From the NCBI GenBank assembly GCA_951406725.2, contig CATOCA020000004.1:434001-498000 (forward strand): a stretch of DNA of 64,000 nt, given 5' to 3'. Below the pieces are notes generated by a model that was not told the origin of the DNA, searched no databases, and saw only the letters and a program-made list of their open reading frames with translations. This stretch comes from Octopus vulgaris. Taxonomy: Eukaryota. The position numbers were made by a program, and so were the translations under genes. Below are positions 3,022-43,377 of the stretch, one piece after another. Positions within the stretch are counted from its first letter, which is position 1; every line of letters begins with the position of its first letter.

Positions 3022-3460
3022 TGTGTGTGTTTGTGTTTGTTCCCCTAGCATTGCTTGACAACCGATGCTGGTGTATTTATGTCCCCGTTACTTAGCGGTT
3101 CGGCAAAAGAGACCGATAGAATAAGTACTGGGCTTACAAAAGAATAAGTCCCGGGGTCGATTTGCTCGATTAAAGGCGGTGCTCCAGCAAATAGAATGAC
3201 TGAAACTAATAAAAGAGTAAAAGAGAGAGAGAGAGAGTTCTGTTTGCCCCTATATTCTTTCTGTGCCAAAGAATTACGAGTGCTTATAACATTCCCAACA
3301 GATTCTTCCCTTTTCCTTACACATTCTGCACTTCCAACTTTCCAAAGATTTGTCTATTCTTGTCTTAATTACGTTCTTTACTGATAATTGGCTTCGAGAA
3401 GTCCTAAACAAAGCCCTTCCAGTTCTTTCTTGAATTCTCCATTCTTCAGCATAAAGCAAG
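2445..3460 (-). mobile_element. Degenerate R4/Dong-like LINE fragment split by a SINE1 insertion
   Basis: 3236-3460 reads KCRMCKEK..LAQKEYRG (zinc-knuckle region); 2445-2606 continues DCVARLLYWDLLRQKGFEVRRKWYQH...AKRPDIVIV. Confidence 0.7.
2608..3230 (+). mobile_element. SINE family 1 with duplicated 5' half
   Basis: Two heads (~2610 and ~2788), one tail. Confidence 0.9.
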
Positions 3461-3551
3461 ATTTGTCTGCTATTACGCTGTTGTCTCTATGGTAACTTAT
3501 CTTATTAGCAAAAAACTTGGTTTATTCTTTAAAAAAATTCACAATTAAGGA

Positions 3552-3651
3552 NNNNNNNNNNNNNNNNNNNNNNNNNNNNNNNNNNNNNNNNNNNNNNNNN
3601 NNNNNNNNNNNNNNNNNNNNNNNNNNNNNNNNNNNNNNNNNNNNNNNNNNN
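3552..3651. other. Assembly gap (100 N)
   Basis: Run of n. Confidence 1.
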
Positions 3652-3870
3652 AGAGAGAAATAGATAGATAGGCTGGTAGATAGATAGATAGATACGGACA
3701 TATAGATAGATAGATGGATGGATGGATAGATAGTTGGATAGATAGATAGATAAATAGATAGATTCGGATAGATGGATAAGATAGATGAACAGATAGATGG
3801 ATAGATAGGTAGACAGATAGATAGATGAACAGATAGATGGATAGATAGATAATTATACAGATAGATAGAT
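3652..3870. repeat. (GATA/GATG)n microsatellite
   Basis: Direct. Confidence 0.95.
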
Positions 3871-4399
3871 TGAAAGTTGTTTACGCTAGCGAACAGAGCG
3901 AGTTATGAAAAGCGACGTTTGTTTGCCTTCGTCCGAAACTGGCTTTTCACAACGACAGCCACTGACTTCTACCATTACAGCTTCCTCTCAGATCCACTTC
4001 TTGGTGTGGCGGACATATTTCCGGGTTCAACTTCCTAATCTGATACTTACATTGTTTATATTCGCTTGCCTTTGTTGTTGTAGTTGCTGTTGTTGCTGTT
4101 ATGATTCTTGTTACTATCTCATCATTGTATCGTTTACGCTTTGCAAAATGTGGTGACGTCATTGAGAGAGAGAGGAGTGATAGAACACTTGACTGACTTA
4201 CATGTGGGCTCACACGTACCCCTCTGCCCGGTCCTCCCATTTCGCTGTGTTTGTTTTGTGTGTGTTATACAACGAAGGTGATGTAGGAATTCACGCCGGC
4301 CCCGCAGAAACCGTGATACGTGTTTAACTGCATTCCCATCCCGTTCTGCCAGATTCTCTACGATGTCAGCAATGGATGTATGCAACAACAGTCGACAAA

Positions 4400-4812
4400 G
4401 GCGCAGGAGTGGCCGTGTGGTAAGTAGCTTGCTAACCAACCACATGGTTCAGTCCCACTGCGTGGCATCTTGGGCAAGTGTCTTCTGCTATAGCCCCGGG
4501 CCGACCAATGCCTTGTTAGTGGATTTGGTAGACGGAAACTGAAAGAAGCCTGTCGTATATATGTATATATATATATATATATATGCATGTGTGTGTGTTT
4601 GTGTGTCTGTGTTTGTCCCCTAGCATTGCTTGGTAACCGACGCTGGTGTGTTTACGTCCCCGTTGCTTAGCGGTTCGGCAAAAGAGACCGATAGAATAAG
4701 TACTGGGCTTACAAAGAATAAGTCCTGGGGTCGATTTGCTCGACTAAAGGCGGTGCTCCAGCATGGCCACAGTCAAACGACTGAAACAAGTAAAAGAGTA
4801 AAAGAGTAAAGA
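4400..4812 (+). mobile_element. SINE family 1, full length
   Basis: Head to (gtaaaaga)n tail. Confidence 0.9.
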
Positions 4813-6485: not shown

Positions 6486-7001
6486 CAGTGCTTTTCAAAC
6501 TTTTTGCTGGAGCGGAACCCCAAGGAAACATTCCACTGGCTCAAGGAACCCCTGTGCAATAATTTAATAGTCTTATGCACACATATCTGCACAGGAGACT
6601 TAAAAATTACTGCCGATTTTAGCAGTTTTGTAACTTCTTGCGGAACCCCTGGACTGTACTGACGGAACCCCAAGGAAACATTCCACTGGCTCGAGGAACC
6701 CCTGTGCAATAATTTAATAGTCTTATGCACACATATCTGCACAGGAGACTTAAAAATTACTGCCGATTTTAGCAGTTTTGTAACTTCTTGCGGAACCCCT
6801 GGACTGTACTGGCGGAACCCCAAGGAAACATTCCACTGGCTCGAGGAACCCCTGTGCAATAATTTAATAGTCTTATGCACACATATCTGCACAGGAGACT
6901 TAAAAATTACTGCCGATTTTAGCAGTTTTGTAACTTCTTGCGGAACCCCTGGACTGTACTGGCGGAACCCTAAGGTTCTGCGGAACCCTGGTTGAAAACC
7001 A

Positions 7002-7294: not shown

Positions 7295-7430
7295 CTTGCT
7301 GCCCGACATAGCTGTCCGTTTTGTGCTCTGTACACGGGATGTGTAACAGCATTCTGAAGCATTTGCACTCAAATGCCTGGATACTTCACTTCACGTCAGC
7401 TATAAGAGTCTGGCCCTTGCACCATTGCTG
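7295..7430 (-). mobile_element. RTE-clade LINE fragment
   Basis: IQAFECKCFRMLLHIPCTEHKTDSYV, a characteristic RTE ORF2 C-terminal motif. Confidence 0.7.
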
Positions 7431-8401: not shown

Positions 8402-8643
8402 ACCAACATCACCATCAAAATACAGGTCCAGATACTGCAACAGCTTGGGTTTCAGAGGACCACAGCTCTTTAACATCCTCCCTAAATGCCTGAGAGACTT
8501 ACATGGTGTGGATGTGGGTTTCTTTAAAACTAAACTGGATCTCTTCTTGTCGGGAGTCCCAGATGAACCTACCTCACGACAGGAGACGCGGATGCGGGCA
8601 GCAGCATCGAACTCCCTTGTTGATCAAGTGCCACGTATCAGAG
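8402..8643 (+). mobile_element. 3' fragment of the same CR1/L2-group LINE as 61690-64000
   Basis: [27 protein letters not shown]...VPRIR, near-identical to the C-terminus of ORF 61766-63904. Confidence 0.92.
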
Positions 8644-8802
8644 CCTTTTCATGCACTTGTGCACAAATGCCTGCATCCTTCGATCCATGCCAGCATTCGC
8701 AACAAAACTGACTCCTGTTCTATATTGAAGAGATGAGGAGTTACGTACATTATTTACATTATTTACATTTGACGGATATCTGTCCTCGTCTTGTTTGTTG
8801 TC

Positions 8803-8848
8803 AACACAACGTTTCGGCTGGTATACCCTCCAGCCTTCATCAGGTGTC
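8803..8848 (-). ncRNA. Minimal type I hammerhead ribozyme (Penelope-type)
   Basis: Minus strand gacac-CUGAUGA-a-ggcugg/agggUAUA/ccagcc-GAAA-cGUU-guguu: core, 6-bp stem II, palindromic ACGU stem III, stem I gacac/guguu. Confidence 0.75.
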
Positions 8849-8923
8849 TTGAGGGGAAATTTCGAACGCCATATGCCCACGGGTTACTAACCCCAAGATT
8901 CTGAGTTCGATTCCAGGCAGTGA

Positions 8924-8970
<47 letters not shown>

Positions 8971-9044
8971 GTAATAATATCGAAAAATACCTTAGGAATG
9001 AAAGCCTAGGTTCGAAATTTCCCCGTCGTATATATATATATATA

Positions 9045-9470
9045 TCACAATCATCATCGTCATCATCATCATCATCATCATCGTCCTCATTTTCATCATT
9101 GTCGTCATCATCACCAGCATCAACACTCATCATCATTTCATCATCATCAGCAGCAGCAGTATCCTGGTCGTCCTCATCATCACCACCACTACCACCACCA
9201 CCATCACCACTGCCACCACCACTACCATCATCGTCATCATTTTCATCATCATCAGCATCACCAACATCCATCATCATTTCATCATAATCAGCAGCATCGT
9301 CTTCCTCATCGTCACCAGCACCACCACCACCACTACTACTATCATCAGCATCATTATCCCCATCATCATCATCATCATCAATCACCACTCTCATCAACAT
9401 CGTGATCGTCATCATTGACATTATCACGATTGCTATTACACTTAACACCACCACCACCACCACCACCACC
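9045..9470. repeat. (CAT/CAC)n trinucleotide low-complexity tract
   Basis: Direct. Confidence 0.9.
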
Positions 9471-12400
9471 ACCACCACCACCACTTCACCTACCACTACC
9501 CAAACCATCACCACCACCACTCCACCATATCGACCACCATCAGCAGTTTCATCATTTCAAACACCAAAACCATCGCCACTAAAAGACCCACCACCACCAC
9601 TTCACCTACCACTACCCAAACCACTACCACCACCACTCCACCATATCGACCACCATCAGCAGTTTCATCACTTCAAACACCAAAACCATCGCCACTAAAA
9701 GACCCACCACCACCACTTCACCTACCACTACCCAAACCATCACCACCACCACTCCACCATATCGACCACCATCAGCAGTTTCATCATTTCAAACACCAAA
9801 ACCATCGCCAATAAAAGACCCACCACCACCACTTCACCTACCACTACCCAAACCACTACCACCACCACTCCACCATATCGACCACCATCAGCAGTTTCAT
9901 CACTTCAAACACCAAAACCATCGCCACTAAAAGACCCACCACCACCACCACCACTTCACCTACCACTACCCAAACCACTACCACCACCACTCCACCATAT
10001 CGACCACCATCAGCAGTTTCATCATTTCAAACACCAAAACCATCGCCACTAAAAGACCCACCACCACCACTTCACCTACCACTACCCAAACCACTACCAC
10101 CACCACTCCACCATATCGACCACCATCAGCAGTTTCATCACTTCAAACACCAAAACCATCGCCACTAAAAGACCCACCACCACCACCACCACTTCACCTA
10201 CCACTACCCAAACCACTACCACCACCACTCCACCATATCGACCACCATCAGCAGTTTCATCACTTCAAACACCAAAACCATCGCCACTAAAAGACCCACC
10301 ACCACCACTTCACCTACCACTACCCAAACCACTACCACCACCACTCCACCATATCCACCACCATCAGCAGTTTCATCATTTCAAACACCAAAACCGTCGC
10401 CACTAAAAGACCCACCACCACCACTTCACCTACCACTACCCAAACCACTACCACCACCACTCCACCATATCGACCACCATCAGCAGTTTCATCATTTCAA
10501 ACACCAAAACCATCGCCACTAAAAGACCCACCACCACCACTTCACCTACCACTACCCAAACCACTACCACCACCACTCCACCATATCGACCACCATCAGC
10601 AGTTTCATCATTTCAAACACCAAAACCATCGCCACTAAAAGACCCACCACCACCACTTCACCTACCACTACCCAAACCATCACCACCACCACTCCACCAT
10701 ATCGACCACCATCAGCAGTTTCATCATTTCAAACACCAAAACCATCGCCACTAAAAGACCCACCACCACCACTTCACCTACCACTACCCAAACCACTACC
10801 ACCACCACTCCACCATATCGACCACCATCAGCAGTTTCATCATTTCAAACACCAAAACCATCGCCACTAAAAGACCCACCACCACCACTTCACCTACCAC
10901 TACCCAAACCATCACCACCACCACTCCACCATATCGACCAGCATCAGCAGTTTCATCATTTCAAACACCAAAACCATCGCCACTAAAAGACCCACCACCA
11001 CCACTTCACCTACCACTACCCAAACCACTACCACCACCATCAAACACCAAAACCATCGCCACTAAAAGACCCACCACCACCACTTCACCTACCACTACCC
11101 AAACCACTACCACCACCACTCCACCATATCGACCACCATCAGCAGTTTCATCACTTCAAACACCAAAACCATCGCCACTAAAAGACCCACCACCACCACC
11201 ACCACTTCACCTACCACTACCCAAACCACTACCACCACCACTCCACCATATCGACCACCATCAGCAGTTTCATCATTTCAAACACCAAAACCATCGCCAC
11301 TAAAAGACCCACCACCACCACTTCACCTACCACTACCCAAACCACTACCACCACCACTCCACCATATCGACCACCATCAGCAGTTTCATCACTTCAAACA
11401 CCAAAACCATCGCCACTAAAAGACCCACCACCACCACCACCACTTCACCTACCACTACCCAAACCACTACCACCACCACTCCACCATATCGACCACCATC
11501 AGCAGTTTCATCATTTCAAACACCAAAACCATCGCCACTAAAAGACCCACCACCACCACTTCACCTACCACTACCCAAACCACTACCACCACCACTCCAC
11601 CATATCGACCACCATCAGCAGTTTCATCACTTCAAACACCAAAACCATCGCCACTAAAAGACCCACCACCACCACCACCACTTCACCTACCACTACCCAA
11701 ACCACTACCACCACCACTCCACCATATCGACCACCATCAGCAGTTTCATCACTTCAAACACCAAAACCATCGCCACTAAAAGACCCACCACCACCACTTC
11801 ACCTACCACTACCCAAACCACTACCACCACCACTCCACCATATCCACCACCATCAGCAGTTTCATCATTTCAAACACCAAAACCGTCGCCACTAAAAGAC
11901 CCACCACCACCACTTCACCTACCACTACCCAAACCACTACCACCACCACTCCACCATATCGACCACCATCAGCAGTTTCATCATTTCAAACACCAAAACC
12001 ATCGCCACTAAAAGACCCACCACCACCACTTCACCTACCACTACCCAAACCACTACCACCACCACTCCACCATATCGACCACCATCAGCAGTTTCATCAC
12101 TTCAAACACCAAAACCATCGCCACTAAAAGACCCACCACCACCACCACCACTTCACCTACCACTACCCAAACCACTACCACCACCACTCCACCATATCCA
12201 CCACCATCAGCAGTTTCATCATTTCAAACACCAAAACCATCGCCACTAAAAGACCCACCACCACCACTTCACCTACCACTACCCAAACCACTACCACCAC
12301 CACTCCACCATATCGACCACTATCAGCAGTTTCATCACTTCAAACACCAAAACCATCGCCACTAAAAGACCCACCACCACCACCACCACTTCACCTACCA

Positions 12401-15400
12401 CTACCCAAACCACTACCACCACCACTCCACCATATCGACCACCATCAGCAGTTTCATCATTTCAAACACCAAAACCATCGCCACTAAAAGACCCACCACC
12501 ACCACTTCACCTACCACTACCCAAACCACTACCACCACCACTCCACCATATCGACCACCATCAGCAGTTTCATCACTTCAAACACCAAAACCATCGCCAC
12601 TAAAAGACCCACCACCACCACCACCACTTCACCTACCACTACCCAAACCACTACCACCACCACTCCACCATATCGACCACCATCATCAGTTTCATCACTT
12701 CAAACACCAAAACCATCGCCACTAAAAGACCCACCACCACCACTTCACCTACCACTACCCAAACCACTACCACCACCACTCCACCATATCCACCACCATC
12801 AGCAGTTTCATCACTTCAAACACCAAAACCATCGCCACTAAAAGACCCACCACCACCACTTCACCTACCACTACCCAAACCACTACCACCACCACTCCAC
12901 CATATCGACCACCATCAGCAGTTTCATCATTTCAAACACCAAAACCATCGCCACTAAAAGACCCACCACCACCACTTCACCTACCACTACCCAAACCACT
13001 ACCACCACCACTCCACCATATCGACCACCATCAGCAGTTTCATCACTTCAAACACCAAAACCATCGCCACTAAAAGACCCACCACCACCACCACCACTTC
13101 ACCTACCACTACCCAAACCACTACCACCACCACTCCACCATATCGACCACCATCAGCAGTTTCATCATTTCAAACACCAAAACCATCGCCACTAAAAGAC
13201 CCACCACCACCACTTCACCTACCACTACCCAAACCACTACCACCACCACTCCACCATATCGACCACCATCAGCAGTTTCATCACTTCAAACACCAAAACC
13301 ATCGCCACTAAAAGACCCACCACCACCACTTCACCTACCACTACCCAAACCATCACCACCACCACTCCACCATATCGACCACCATCAGCAGTTTCATCAC
13401 TTCAAACACCAAAACCATCGCCACTAAAAGACCCACCACCACCACCACCACTTCACCTACCACTACCCAAACCACTAGCACCACCACTCCACCATATCCA
13501 CCACCATCAGCAGTTTCATCATTTCAAACACCAAAACCATCGCCACTAAAAGACCCACCACCACCACTTCACCTACCACTACCCAAACCACTACCACCAC
13601 CACTCCACCATATCGACCACCATCAGCAGTTTCATCACTTCAAACACCAAAACCATCGCCACTAAAAGACCCACCACCACCACCACCACTTCACCTACCA
13701 CTACCCAAACCACTACCACCACCACTCCACCATATCGACCACCATCAGCAGTTTCATCATTTCAAACACCAAAACCATCGCCACTAAAAGACCCACCACC
13801 ACCACTTCACCTACCACTACCCAAACCACTACCACCACCACTCCACCATATCGACCACCATCAGCAGTTTCATCACTTCAAACACCAAAACCATCGCCAC
13901 TTAAAGACCCACCACCACCACTTCACCTACCACTACCCAAACCATCACCACCACCACTCCACCATATCGACCACCATCAGCAGTTTCATCACTTCAAACA
14001 CCAAAACCATCGCCACTAAAAGACCCACCACCACCACTTCACCTACCACTACCCAAACCACTACCACCACCACTCCACCATATCCACCACCATCAGCAGT
14101 TTCATCACTTCAAACACCAAAACCATCGCCACTAAAAGACCCACCACCACCACTTCACCTACCACTACCCAAACCACTACCACCACCACTCCACCATATC
14201 GACCACCATCAGCAGTTTCATCACTTCAAACACCAAAACCATCGCCACTAAAAGACCCACCACCACCACCACCACTTCACCTACCACTACCCAAACCACT
14301 ACCACCACCACTCCACCATATCGACCACCATCAGCAGTTTCATCACTTCAAACACCAAAACCATCGCCACTAAAAGACCCACCACCACCACCACCACTTC
14401 ACCTACCACTACCCAAACCACTACCACCACCACTCCACCATATCGACCACCATCAGCAGTTTCATCACTTCAAACACCAAAACCATCGCCACTAAAAGAC
14501 CCACCACCACCACCACCACTTCACCTACCACTACCCAAACCATCACCACCACCACTCCACCATATCGACCACCATCAGCAGTTTTATCACTTCAAACACC
14601 AAAACCATCGCCACTAAAAGACCCACCACCACCACCACCACTTCACCTACCACTACCCAAACCATCACCACCACCACTCCACCATATCCACCACCATCAG
14701 CAGTTTCATCACTTCAAACACCAAAACCATCGCCACTAAAAGACCCACCACCACCACCACCACTTCACCTACCACTACCCAAACCATCACCACCACCACT
14801 CCACCATATCCACCACCATCAGCAGTTTCATCACTTCAAACACCAAAACCATCGCCACTAAAAGACCCACCACTACCACCACCACTTCACCTACCACTAC
14901 CCAAACCATCACCACCACCACTCCACCATATCCACCACCATCAGCAGTTTCATCACTTCAAACACCAAAACCATCGCCACTAAAAGACCCACCACCACCA
15001 CTTCACCTACCACTACCCAAACCACTACCACCACCACTCCACCATATCGGCCACCATCAGCAGTTTTATCACTTCAAACACCAAAACCATCGCCACTAAA
15101 AGACCCACCACCACCACTTCACCTACCACTACCCAAACCACTACCACCACCACTCCACCATATCGACCACCATCAGCAGTTTCATCACTTCAAACACCAA
15201 AACCATCGCCACTAAAAGACCCACCACCACCACTTCACCTACCACTACCCAAACCACTACCACCACCACTCCACCATATCCACCACCATCAGCAGTTTCA
15301 TCATTTCAAACACCAAAACCATCGCCACTAAAAGACCCACCACCACCACCACCACTTCACCTACCATTACCCAAACCACCACCATCACTCCACCATATCG

Positions 15401-15475
15401 ACCACCATCAGCAGTTTTATCATTTCAAACACCAAAACCATCGCCACTAAAAGACCCACCACCACCACCACCACC
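9470..15475. repeat. CA-rich tandem satellite, 116/122-bp units, about 50 copies
   Basis: Unit catttcaaacaccaaaaccatcgccactaaaagacccaccaccaccacttcacctaccactacccaaaccactaccaccaccactccaccatatcgaccaccatcagcagtttcat. Confidence 0.97.
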
Positions 15476-43208: not shown

Positions 43209-43377
43209 TGGAGGCGCAATGGCCCAGTGGTTAGGGCAGCGGACTTGCGGTCGGAGGATCGCGGTTTCGATTCCCAGACCGGGCGTTGTGTGTGTTTATT
43301 GAGCGAAAACACCTAAAAGCTCCAAGAGGCTCCGGCAGGGGATGGTGGTGATCCCTGCTGTACTCTTTCACCACTCT
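43209..43377 (+). mobile_element. SINE family 4 (tRNA head), right arm only
   Basis: ggcgcaatggcccagtggttagggcagcggacttgcggtcggaggatcgcggtttcgattccc. Confidence 0.75.

What the first reader, a model, noticed from the sequence alone, without database searches (positions are those of the whole stretch)
8720..9024. Hammerhead ribozyme apparently linked to a Pol III B-box head: candidate ribozyme-bearing, Penelope-mobilised SINE
Seen: a minimal type I hammerhead at 8803-8848(-) with an intact core and palindromic ACGU stem III. Just upstream of it lies gttcgaaatttcccc (8867-8853, minus). The same 15-mer ends a plus-strand segment (9010-9024) that contains a canonical B box gagttcgattcc (8903-8914) and (AAT)n. 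Joining the two at the 15-mer gives tRNA-like head - (AAT)n - hammerhead. Known: Penelope-like elements carry such dimer-acting minimal hammerheads in pLTRs and often leave inverted partial copies. Inference: a non-autonomous Pol III plus hammerhead element (SINE/retrozyme hybrid).
Basis: partly seen in the sequence, partly recalled or inferred. Interest (0 to 1): 0.78.

Follow-up and report, generated by a model that had tools for sequence, protein, structure and literature searches.

The report
Penelope retrotransposon with tRNA-type promoter head

Summary
The hammerhead and B box are real, and head-(AAT)n-hammerhead-tail is collinear in many other copies. It is not a free-standing SINE. It is the pseudo-LTR of an autonomous Penelope/Poseidon-type element of about 2.7 kb (one RT + GIY-YIG ORF). 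The tRNA-Arg-like head starts about 30 nt after the stop codon, and the tail runs into the next ORF.

Exact 23-mer counts in the 2.8-Gb genome: endonuclease 642, 3' UTR 724, head 4,893, ribozyme 6,952. Copy number drops sharply at the head's 5' edge. Copy 5' ends pile up at -7 to +11 of tRNA +1. Short copies show no diagnostic mutations of their own. Most loci are head-to-head pairs with target-site duplications and one long plus one short tail, as known for Penelope insertions.

Best reading (0.65): Pol III starts at the head, and the element's internally priming RT copies that RNA. Main rival: a hairpin at the same spot. Bold reading (0.3): Pol III transcribes the whole coding element, which has no TTTT in 2,740 nt.

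The window copy is a decayed pair. The head arm lacks box A, and the shared 15-mer is a breakpoint overlap. Neither Pol III use nor cleavage was shown.

The parts
8715..8802 (-). PLE tail after the ribozyme (5' UTR and first codons of the next ORF); ends at the distal of two recurrent 3' ends, so this is the 'long-tail' arm
   Evidence: BLAST to the in-script majority sequence, 88.7% over 8717-8867; the same sequence precedes the ORF in L081, L152, L160; 3' ends are bimodal (RNA loose ends)
8803..8848 (-). Minimal type I hammerhead motif: 5-bp stem I, CUGAUGA, extra A, 5-bp stem II, GAAA, palindromic ACGU instead of stem III; predicted cut after 8808
   Evidence: Sequence; 6,952 exact 23-mers; the only strongly polymorphic core site is the free position 7 (T56/A28 of 87 copies). 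Activity not tested; the monomer's MFE (-15.7) is a different fold from the hammerhead fold (-11.2)
8849..8867 (-). Spacer before the ribozyme, including the 15-mer; the arm jumps here from head base +13, losing about 115 nt
8866..8883 (.). Fold-back centre of the head-to-head pair: head bases +1 to +13 on the minus strand (8878-8866) and the TGCCC-AC-GGG hairpin (8874-8883)
   Evidence: Sequence; the same palindrome sits at the junction of other pairs (10 fold-back arms of 78)
8884..8927 (+). 3' part of the tRNA-derived head (anticodon arm to T arm) with box B at 8903-8914; box A is deleted in this copy
   Evidence: Head of the majority sequence scores 64 against a host tRNA-Arg(TCG), shuffles 28+-4, max 46 of 500; not called tRNA by ARAGORN or Rfam
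8928..8980 (+). (AAT)n array, an internal part of the pseudo-LTR
   Evidence: Present between head and spacer in ORF-linked copies
8979..9024 (+). Spacer of the plus arm, broken off at 9024 before its own ribozyme
   Evidence: the following bases (9022-9046) match the 3' end of another abundant repeat found in 28 of 370 loci, so this end is likely a later deletion

Best explanation
The feature is a decayed head-to-head copy of the pseudo-LTR of an autonomous Penelope/Poseidon-type retrotransposon, in which a tRNA-derived head with boxes A and B sits between the ORF stop and the hammerhead motif and likely serves as a Pol III promoter. Shown: the unit order ORF-stop, head, (AAT)n, spacer, hammerhead, tail, next ORF; the sharp drop in copy number at the head's 5' edge; the two 3' ends; the target-site duplications. 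Inferred: Pol III starts about 6 nt before tRNA +1 and reads through the T-run-free unit. The element's RT binds the tail and primes internally at two sites, as shown in vitro for Anolis Poseidon, so the RNA needs no defined 3' end and any solo pseudo-LTR transcript can be copied. Both nicked target strands prime a cDNA, one from each start site. The two cDNAs run towards the RNA 5' end and are joined by microhomology or by fold-back at the TGCCC-AC-GGGCA hairpin, giving an inverted pair flanked by one duplication. The ribozyme is likely a slow dimer- or protein-assisted cutter that is not needed to make these copies. The result works like a SINE made from the element's own terminal repeat.
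For: Parent element: endonuclease-like frame directly upstream of the head; RT domain (PF00078, E 2.8e-10 and 1.2e-9); endonuclease region aligns with a PF01541-bearing protein (E 2e-28); ribozyme and tail directly before the ORF in L081; one continuous 813-codon frame in the majority sequence. Step in copy number: 642 (endonuclease) and 724 (3' UTR), 151 nt apart, against 4,893 (head), about 63 nt further, and 6,952 (ribozyme); controls 0. 5' ends: of 78 box-A arms in 108 loci, 56 end at -7 to +11 (mode +1, 10 arms; 2 of the 56 are ORF-linked copies with a deletion, by eye), 10 fold back, 10 run on to the ORF side, 2 stop at -20 and -26, and none stops at -8 to -19. Single copies without an inverted partner also end there (e.g. 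L143, L156, L170, L175, L191). Boxes A and B match the recalled consensus, while the cloverleaf stems are broken (direct inspection). No TTTT in the 178-nt 3' UTR (22% T), whereas 7 of 8 related PLE 3' UTRs have TTTT (29-51% T). Insertion mode: 53 of 88 position-ordered loci are head-to-head; of 34 with both outer ends mapped, 28 have one long and one short tail, 6 two short, 0 two long; flanking direct repeats average 8.6 nt (up to 14) vs 4.6 for random pairs. The distal end is about +117 from the AUG in the ribozyme core, against 111-118 in Anolis Poseidon (PMC11167929).
Against: No Pol III transcript was seen. RNA reads cover ribozyme and tail deeply but equally on both strands, with no peak of starts or ends, as read-through of old copies would give. 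The 18 nt before the head are an imperfect inverted copy of its start and form the second-strongest 32-nt cDNA hairpin region of the element (-6.6 kcal/mol), which could stop RT at the same place without any promoter. D. virilis Penelope also starts transcription in its pseudo-LTR, from a LINE-like internal promoter (PMC2377424, passages), so a start site here does not identify the polymerase. Copies are about 5% diverged at non-CpG sites and only 16 of 87 keep an intact core, so the family may be dead. 8 of 20 head-selected loci end in the (AAT)n array with no ribozyme, which the model explains only by priming in, or later insertion into, the array.
Confidence: 0.65

Rival explanations
1. The head is a passive captured tRNA or SINE fragment. 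Long transcripts are copied, and cDNA synthesis snaps back or switches template at the hairpin around the head's start, so the short copies are ordinary 5'-truncated, inverted PLE insertions.
For: Imperfect hairpin centred at the boundary, second-strongest region among 32-nt cDNA windows; 10 of 78 arms are fold-backs; inverted 5'-truncated copies are standard for PLEs (PMC8557442 Fig. 2 legend).
Against: Most arms end without fold-back, including single copies, with a mode at +1 and a hard limit at -7. Boxes A and B are perfect in the majority sequence while the tRNA stems are not. A -6.6 kcal/mol hairpin would have to stop about 85% of cDNAs (724 vs 4,893). I did not test whether the stronger hairpin near position 270 causes a comparable stop.
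Confidence: 0.17
2. The boundary is a true transcription start, but of a Pol II internal promoter that overlaps the tRNA-like sequence, as in D. virilis Penelope; the mRNA may be spliced.
For: D. virilis Penelope starts in its pseudo-LTR 46 nt before an intron that ends at the ribozyme. Here two GT-AG segments (38 and 98 nt) would put the AUG in the ribozyme core in frame with the ORF (my reading of the majority sequence).
Against: That AUG is destroyed in 28 of 87 copies by the U7A core variant. The codons just before the proposed acceptor resemble the N-terminus of related ORFs (L292, L295). No such joint is among the 15 of 18 joints shown, though only some 10-20 reads per run cross tail into ORF. 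It leaves the intact boxes A and B unexplained.
Confidence: 0.1
3. One reading: an independent non-autonomous SINE/retrozyme lineage with its own master copies, mobilised in trans by a PLE.
For: Short copies outnumber ORF-linked ones about 7 to 1, begin at a tRNA head and have target-site duplications.
Against: Every part of the short unit is also part of the autonomous element; no diagnostic substitutions and similar divergence, 4.8% vs 5.6%; not in head-to-tail arrays like retrozymes (0 of 88 loci classed so, though L014 from another sample has short tandem pieces).
Confidence: 0.08

Closest known systems
Penelope/Poseidon-clade PLEs, e.g. Poseidon of Anolis carolinensis (PAc; PMC11167929, parts 1-2 of 4 read)
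   Same: Single RT + C-terminal GIY-YIG ORF, pseudo-LTR with minimal hammerhead overlapping the ORF start, two RT start sites about 30 nt apart giving an optional tail, both strands primed, inverted 5'-truncated partner.
   Different: tRNA-derived head with boxes A and B in the pseudo-LTR; A-rich UTR with no T runs; no in-frame AUG in the first 78 codons; most copies are pseudo-LTR-sized and start at the head. Clade assignment rests on domain order and motifs; no tree with Repbase references was built.
Schistosoma Sm-alpha / Sj-alpha SINE-like elements (seen only through the review PMC6765202, passages; Ferbeyre 1998 not held)
   Same: Pol III promoter followed by a type I hammerhead in a short retroposed repeat.
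   Different: Those are non-coding tandem units with canonical hammerheads that release monomers. Here promoter and minimal hammerhead are part of the autonomous coding element, and copies are inverted pairs with the tail past an uncleaved ribozyme.
TRIMp3: Cassandra, Helenus, Ajax (Kojima 2024, PMC10886601, passages)
   Same: Small-RNA-derived Pol III promoter placed inside a terminal repeat.
   Different: They are non-autonomous LTR elements, and the paper argues their autonomous partners must use Pol II. Here the carrier is an autonomous PLE.
Metazoan non-LTR retrozymes (Cervera and de la Pena 2020, PMC7229834, passages)
   Same: Type I hammerhead in a short (about 300 nt) repeat of invertebrates, including a mussel.
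   Different: Canonical hammerheads, tandem arrays, circular RNAs; the text never mentions Pol III or SINE (0 occurrences).
tRNA-derived SINEs of octopus (OK, OR1, OR2; Ohshima and Okada 1994, seen only as citations)
   Same: tRNA-derived head. Other SINE heads in the same loci score 44-62 against this head.
   Different: Different bodies and no ribozyme in the ones I saw. I could not see the published consensus sequences, so identity with OK or OR1 is not excluded. That the host is an octopus is my recalled inference from repeat content and genome size.

Membership tests
Penelope-like element (EN+, Penelope/Poseidon type) | Single ORF with RT followed by GIY-YIG endonuclease | tested here: met
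   RT by Pfam. Pfam did not call the endonuclease directly, but the region aligns with PF01541-bearing P0015 at E 2e-28. One frame in the majority sequence.
Penelope-like element (EN+, Penelope/Poseidon type) | Pseudo-LTR from partial tandem arrangement | tested here: met
   Ribozyme and/or tail directly before the ORF in L081, L152, L160, L246, L251.
Penelope-like element (EN+, Penelope/Poseidon type) | Minimal hammerhead with extra base at 9/10.1, G10.1-C11.1 pair and palindromic 15.2-16.2 | tested here: met
   Sequence against the traits listed in PMC4209133.
Penelope-like element (EN+, Penelope/Poseidon type) | Optional 30-40-nt tail at one end and inverted 5'-truncated partner | tested here: met
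   28 of 34 pairs have one long and one short tail; 53 of 88 loci inverted.
Penelope-like element (EN+, Penelope/Poseidon type) | Phylogenetic placement in the Poseidon clade | not tested
   No named reference PLE sequences were available; nearest proteins are unnamed (63-27% identity).
tRNA-derived SINE | tRNA-related head with boxes A and B | tested here: met
   Score 64 vs shuffles 28+-4 against host tRNA-Arg(TCG); only 8 tRNA types were compared, and Arg(TCT) 61 and Ala 58 are close, so the parent tRNA is not fixed.
tRNA-derived SINE | Copies begin at the head and are flanked by target-site duplications | tested here: met
   the duplication flanks the inverted pair as a whole. Single copies were not tested for duplications.
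tRNA-derived SINE | Transcribed by RNA polymerase III | not testable with these tools
   RNA reads are strand-symmetric with no start peak.
tRNA-derived SINE | Non-autonomous family with its own master lineage, distinct from the partner except at the tail | tested here: not met
   Whole unit, head included, belongs to the autonomous element; no diagnostic substitutions.
Retrozyme (metazoan non-LTR type) | Head-to-tail tandem units with canonical type I hammerhead | tested here: not met
   Minimal hammerhead; loci are inverted pairs or singles.
Retrozyme (metazoan non-LTR type) | Abundant circular RNA monomers | tested here: inconclusive
   No back-joint at the cleavage site among listed joints and no end peak; the libraries are not suited to it.
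Active hammerhead ribozyme | Self-cleavage after GUU as dimer or with protein | not testable with these tools
   Core and stems present. My dimer energy evaluation failed (invalid structure value), and the predicted dimer MFE was not the hammerhead fold.

The most novel reading that the evidence does not exclude
An autonomous, protein-coding retrotransposon transcribed by RNA polymerase III: the tRNA-derived head is the pseudo-LTR promoter for the whole 2.7-kb unit, the element has been purged of TTTT terminators, and the uncapped RNA is translated without a normal AUG start. The same promoter makes every solo pseudo-LTR a ready SINE template, so LINE-like and SINE-like forms are one sequence. 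For: 0 TTTT in 2,740 nt (synonymous-shuffle P=0.034; composition nulls 0.005-0.006); 30 of 30 control LINE ORFs from 4 families and 26 of 28 other PLE ORFs have TTTT; first in-frame AUG only at codon 79, though the preceding codons are conserved. Against: 2 of 28 other PLE ORFs also lack TTTT, one (L294) over 2.1 kb with no Pol III head; GGGG is absent too; Pol III processivity; no transcript evidence.
Probability: 0.3. Interest if true: 0.88.

Novelty: new variant of a known kind. Interest (0 to 1): 0.62.

Why it matters
Small-RNA Pol III promoters are known in non-autonomous elements (SINEs, TRIMp3, Sm-alpha), and the autonomous partners are assumed to use Pol II. Here the promoter-like head sits in the terminal repeat of the coding element itself. 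With internally priming RT, that gives a direct route by which a Penelope element produces its own SINE-like progeny. It may also show how Sm-alpha-type promoter-plus-hammerhead repeats arose. Thousands of loci with two defined RT starts, one long and one short tail and a single duplication give a genomic test set for the two-strand priming model of PLE insertion. If the whole element is a Pol III transcript, that would be a new expression strategy for a coding retrotransposon, testable with a short promoter assay. I found no description in 8 full-text searches. Repbase, Dfam, SINEBase tables and subscription papers were not visible, so the family may already be catalogued, probably split into a SINE and a Penelope entry.

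Tried and rejected
Rfam scans: no hammerhead or tRNA hit in the region or in a near-majority head; ARAGORN found nothing in the window. Folding 8790-8870(-) gave z=-0.47 and not the hammerhead fold. The look-up of sequencing runs: no RNA holder listed. Raw RNA reads of three runs added by species label gave strand-symmetric depth (ribozyme/tail about 3,400-4,600, ORF 5' part under 25), no start or end peaks and no intron joint among those shown; not informative on polymerase or cleavage. Search for other PLE families in the same genome as a control failed: the 30 loci and 10 lower hits all belong to this family, so metagenome-derived PLEs were used; 30 of 80 loci had an ORF of at least 1,200 nt, reduced to 28 families. 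None of the 80 matched the head or ribozyme region in DNA beyond an AAT run. The 5'-end binning put 19 of 88 loci in the (AAT)n class, but long arrays broke the chaining and at least 5 of them do have a head; I rely and the genome-wide counts. L123 and L165 were dropped as overlaps. A free SINE family sharing the head with another body was looked for in 20 head-selected loci: 10 continue to the ribozyme, 2 to the spacer only, 8 end in the array with unrelated flanks (two, L279 and L280, share a flank and look duplicated). RNase P cleavage at +1 was rejected as sole cause because many ends include up to 7 nt upstream of +1. Twin priming as origin of the window's 15-mer overlap was considered and dropped, because the plus arm ends in another repeat's tail. 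Dimer energy evaluation failed. Lunse 2017 and Ferbeyre 1998 were not held; SINEBase supplements were unreadable and may bear on whether the family is named. Earlier scan findings: none returned.

Full report
Observation. The minus strand reads a 5-bp stem I, CUGAUGA, one extra A, a 5-bp stem II, GAAA, the palindrome ACGU and the predicted cut after 8808. The extra base at 9/10.1, the G-C pair closing stem II and the palindrome are the traits listed for PLE minimal hammerheads in PMC4209133 (passages and part 2 of 4 read). The loose pattern is weak on its own (14 of 100 shuffles) and Rfam misses it. The window lies in a 2.8-Gb genome of 227 contigs, where a 23-mer across the core occurs 6,952 times against 0 for the control. 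That the host is an octopus is my recalled inference, not a tool result.

The halves are collinear elsewhere. The 30 best matches to the ribozyme arm repeatedly show tRNA-like head, (AAT)n, spacer, ribozyme, tail. The head aligns best with a host tRNA-Arg(TCG) among 8 types compared (64 vs shuffles 28+-4), with Arg(TCT) and Ala close behind. Boxes A and B fit the recalled consensus at tRNA-like spacing, while the stems are broken and neither ARAGORN nor Rfam calls a tRNA.

The unit belongs to an autonomous element. Several copies continue upstream into an endonuclease-like frame. Of 30 loci found with that region, most run on into the head. Walking further gave RT with YVDD (PF00078) and a copy, L081, with ribozyme and tail directly before the ORF. 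The in-script majority sequence is 2,740 nt with one frame of 813 codons; coverage at the 5' end is thin (about 10 copies). The endonuclease region aligns with a GIY-YIG-bearing homologue. This is the layout of Penelope/Poseidon elements (PMC11167929, parts 1-2 read; PMC8557442, passages), with one addition: the tRNA-like head about 30 nt behind the stop. All 40 PLE-like loci I examined from this genome were this family.

Copy ends. Exact 23-mer counts are 642 in the endonuclease, 724 in the 3' UTR just before the head, 4,893 in the head and 6,952 in the ribozyme. That is a plateau, then a 6.8-fold step within about 63 nt. In 88 loci taken in chromosome order from the ribozyme list, 53 are head-to-head pairs and 35 single; 40 had their 5'-most point within 2440-2489 of the majority sequence, none in 2300-2439 and 12 further up. 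Fine mapping of 78 box-A arms in 108 loci gave 56 ends at -7 to +11 of tRNA +1 (mode +1; 2 are ORF-linked by eye), 10 fold-backs, 10 read-throughs, 2 at -20 and -26, and none at -8 to -19. 3' ends fall at two sites about 30 nt apart (also in reads). The distal one is about +117 from the AUG in the ribozyme core, matching the internal RT start of Anolis Poseidon. Of 34 pairs with both outer ends mapped, 28 carry one long and one short tail and none two long, and the flanks share direct repeats of up to 14 nt (mean 8.6 vs 4.6 random). Each pair is therefore one insertion primed from both target strands.

Not a separate SINE lineage. 93 head-start and 92 ORF-linked segments differ at no diagnostic substitution and have similar non-CpG divergence, 4.8% and 5.6%. 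The gap differences in that test follow from how the groups were defined. Of 20 loci chosen by the head, 10 reach the ribozyme, 2 the spacer only and 8 end in the array; 1 continues into the ORF upstream. In 87 copies not selected on the ribozyme, the only strongly polymorphic core site is the free position 7 (T56, A28), a sign that the source lineages kept the ribozyme; 16 of 87 still have an intact core.

The window locus. The minus arm runs from head base +1 to +13, jumps to the spacer and ends with a long tail at 8715. The plus arm starts at the hairpin, lacks box A, and breaks at 9024 into a sequence that ends another common repeat. The 15-mer is the overlap of these two breakpoints. This copy cannot make a head-plus-ribozyme RNA.

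Mechanism and rivals. I favour Pol III initiation just before the head with internal priming by the element's RT in the tail (0.65). Steps shown are structure, ends and duplications; polymerase, cleavage and priming are inferred, the last from the Anolis work, where uncleaved RNA was the main template. The main rival is an imperfect hairpin across the same boundary (0.17). A Pol II start as in D. virilis (PMC2377424, passages; 0.10) and an independent SINE (0.08) follow. RNA data did not discriminate.

The bold reading. The sense strand has no TTTT in 2,740 nt (P=0.034 under synonymous shuffling, 0.005-0.006 under looser nulls). All 30 control LINE ORFs (4 families) have at least two, and 26 of 28 other PLE ORFs at least one. 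7 of 8 other PLE 3' UTRs have T runs. But two other PLE ORFs have none, one with no head, so this is suggestive only. The first in-frame AUG is at codon 79 although earlier codons are conserved in homologues. The ribozyme AUG is out of frame and lost in a third of copies, leaving a non-AUG start, a frameshift or a short intron open. I put whole-element Pol III transcription at 0.3.

Comparison and novelty. It is a member of the EN+ PLEs by every feature I could test, clade not fixed by a tree. The short copies work like tRNA SINEs but fail the test of an independent lineage. Nearest precedents are Sm-alpha (review passages only), TRIMp3 (passages) and metazoan retrozymes (passages), all non-autonomous. 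A 2026 octopus repeat annotation lists Penelope and SINE families without mention of ribozymes (PMC13282606, passages). PMC3531059 and PMC4758252 (passages) gave only citations for octopus SINEs. Eight searches found no account of a tRNA head in a PLE pseudo-LTR; repeat databases were not visible. Verdict: new variant of a known kind, interest 0.62.

Noticed in passing
window 8421-8700 (+): 3' fragment of a LINE: a 59-codon frame that looks like a CR1-type RT C-terminus (recalled; Pfam gave no hit), followed by a UTR about 70% like 7341-7400. The PLE pair sits right behind it.
   Followed up: partly
window 9472-15468: Six-kb minisatellite of a 116-nt A/C-rich unit, about 50 copies, 92-96% matches, with strong strand skew.
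   Followed up: no
window 6512-6975: Three tandem 150-nt copies at 98% matches.
   Followed up: no
L290 after the (AAT)n array; L053 after its array: Sequence that reads like the zinc-knuckle and restriction-like endonuclease end of an R4/Dong-type LINE (recalled motifs) directly follows the array, suggesting that microsatellite-targeting LINEs insert into the element's (AAT)n and truncate copies.
   Followed up: no
L002, L003, L004, L018, L081: Copies whose 5' end lies in the (AAT)n array abut the 3' ends of other repeats, as if cDNA ends annealed to existing AAT tails.
   Followed up: partly
window about 43210-43330 (+) and many loci: Other abundant tRNA-derived SINE heads with different bodies, no ribozyme seen.
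   Followed up: no
L081 477-579 and the ORF start of the element: No in-frame AUG for 78 codons; the AUG in the ribozyme core is out of frame and polymorphic. How translation starts is unexplained.
   Followed up: partly
L292, L294, L301, L320, L331, L358, L366 (metagenome contigs): Related PLEs each with their own minimal hammerhead behind the ORF, mostly after a T-rich 3' UTR, and no tRNA head.
   Followed up: partly
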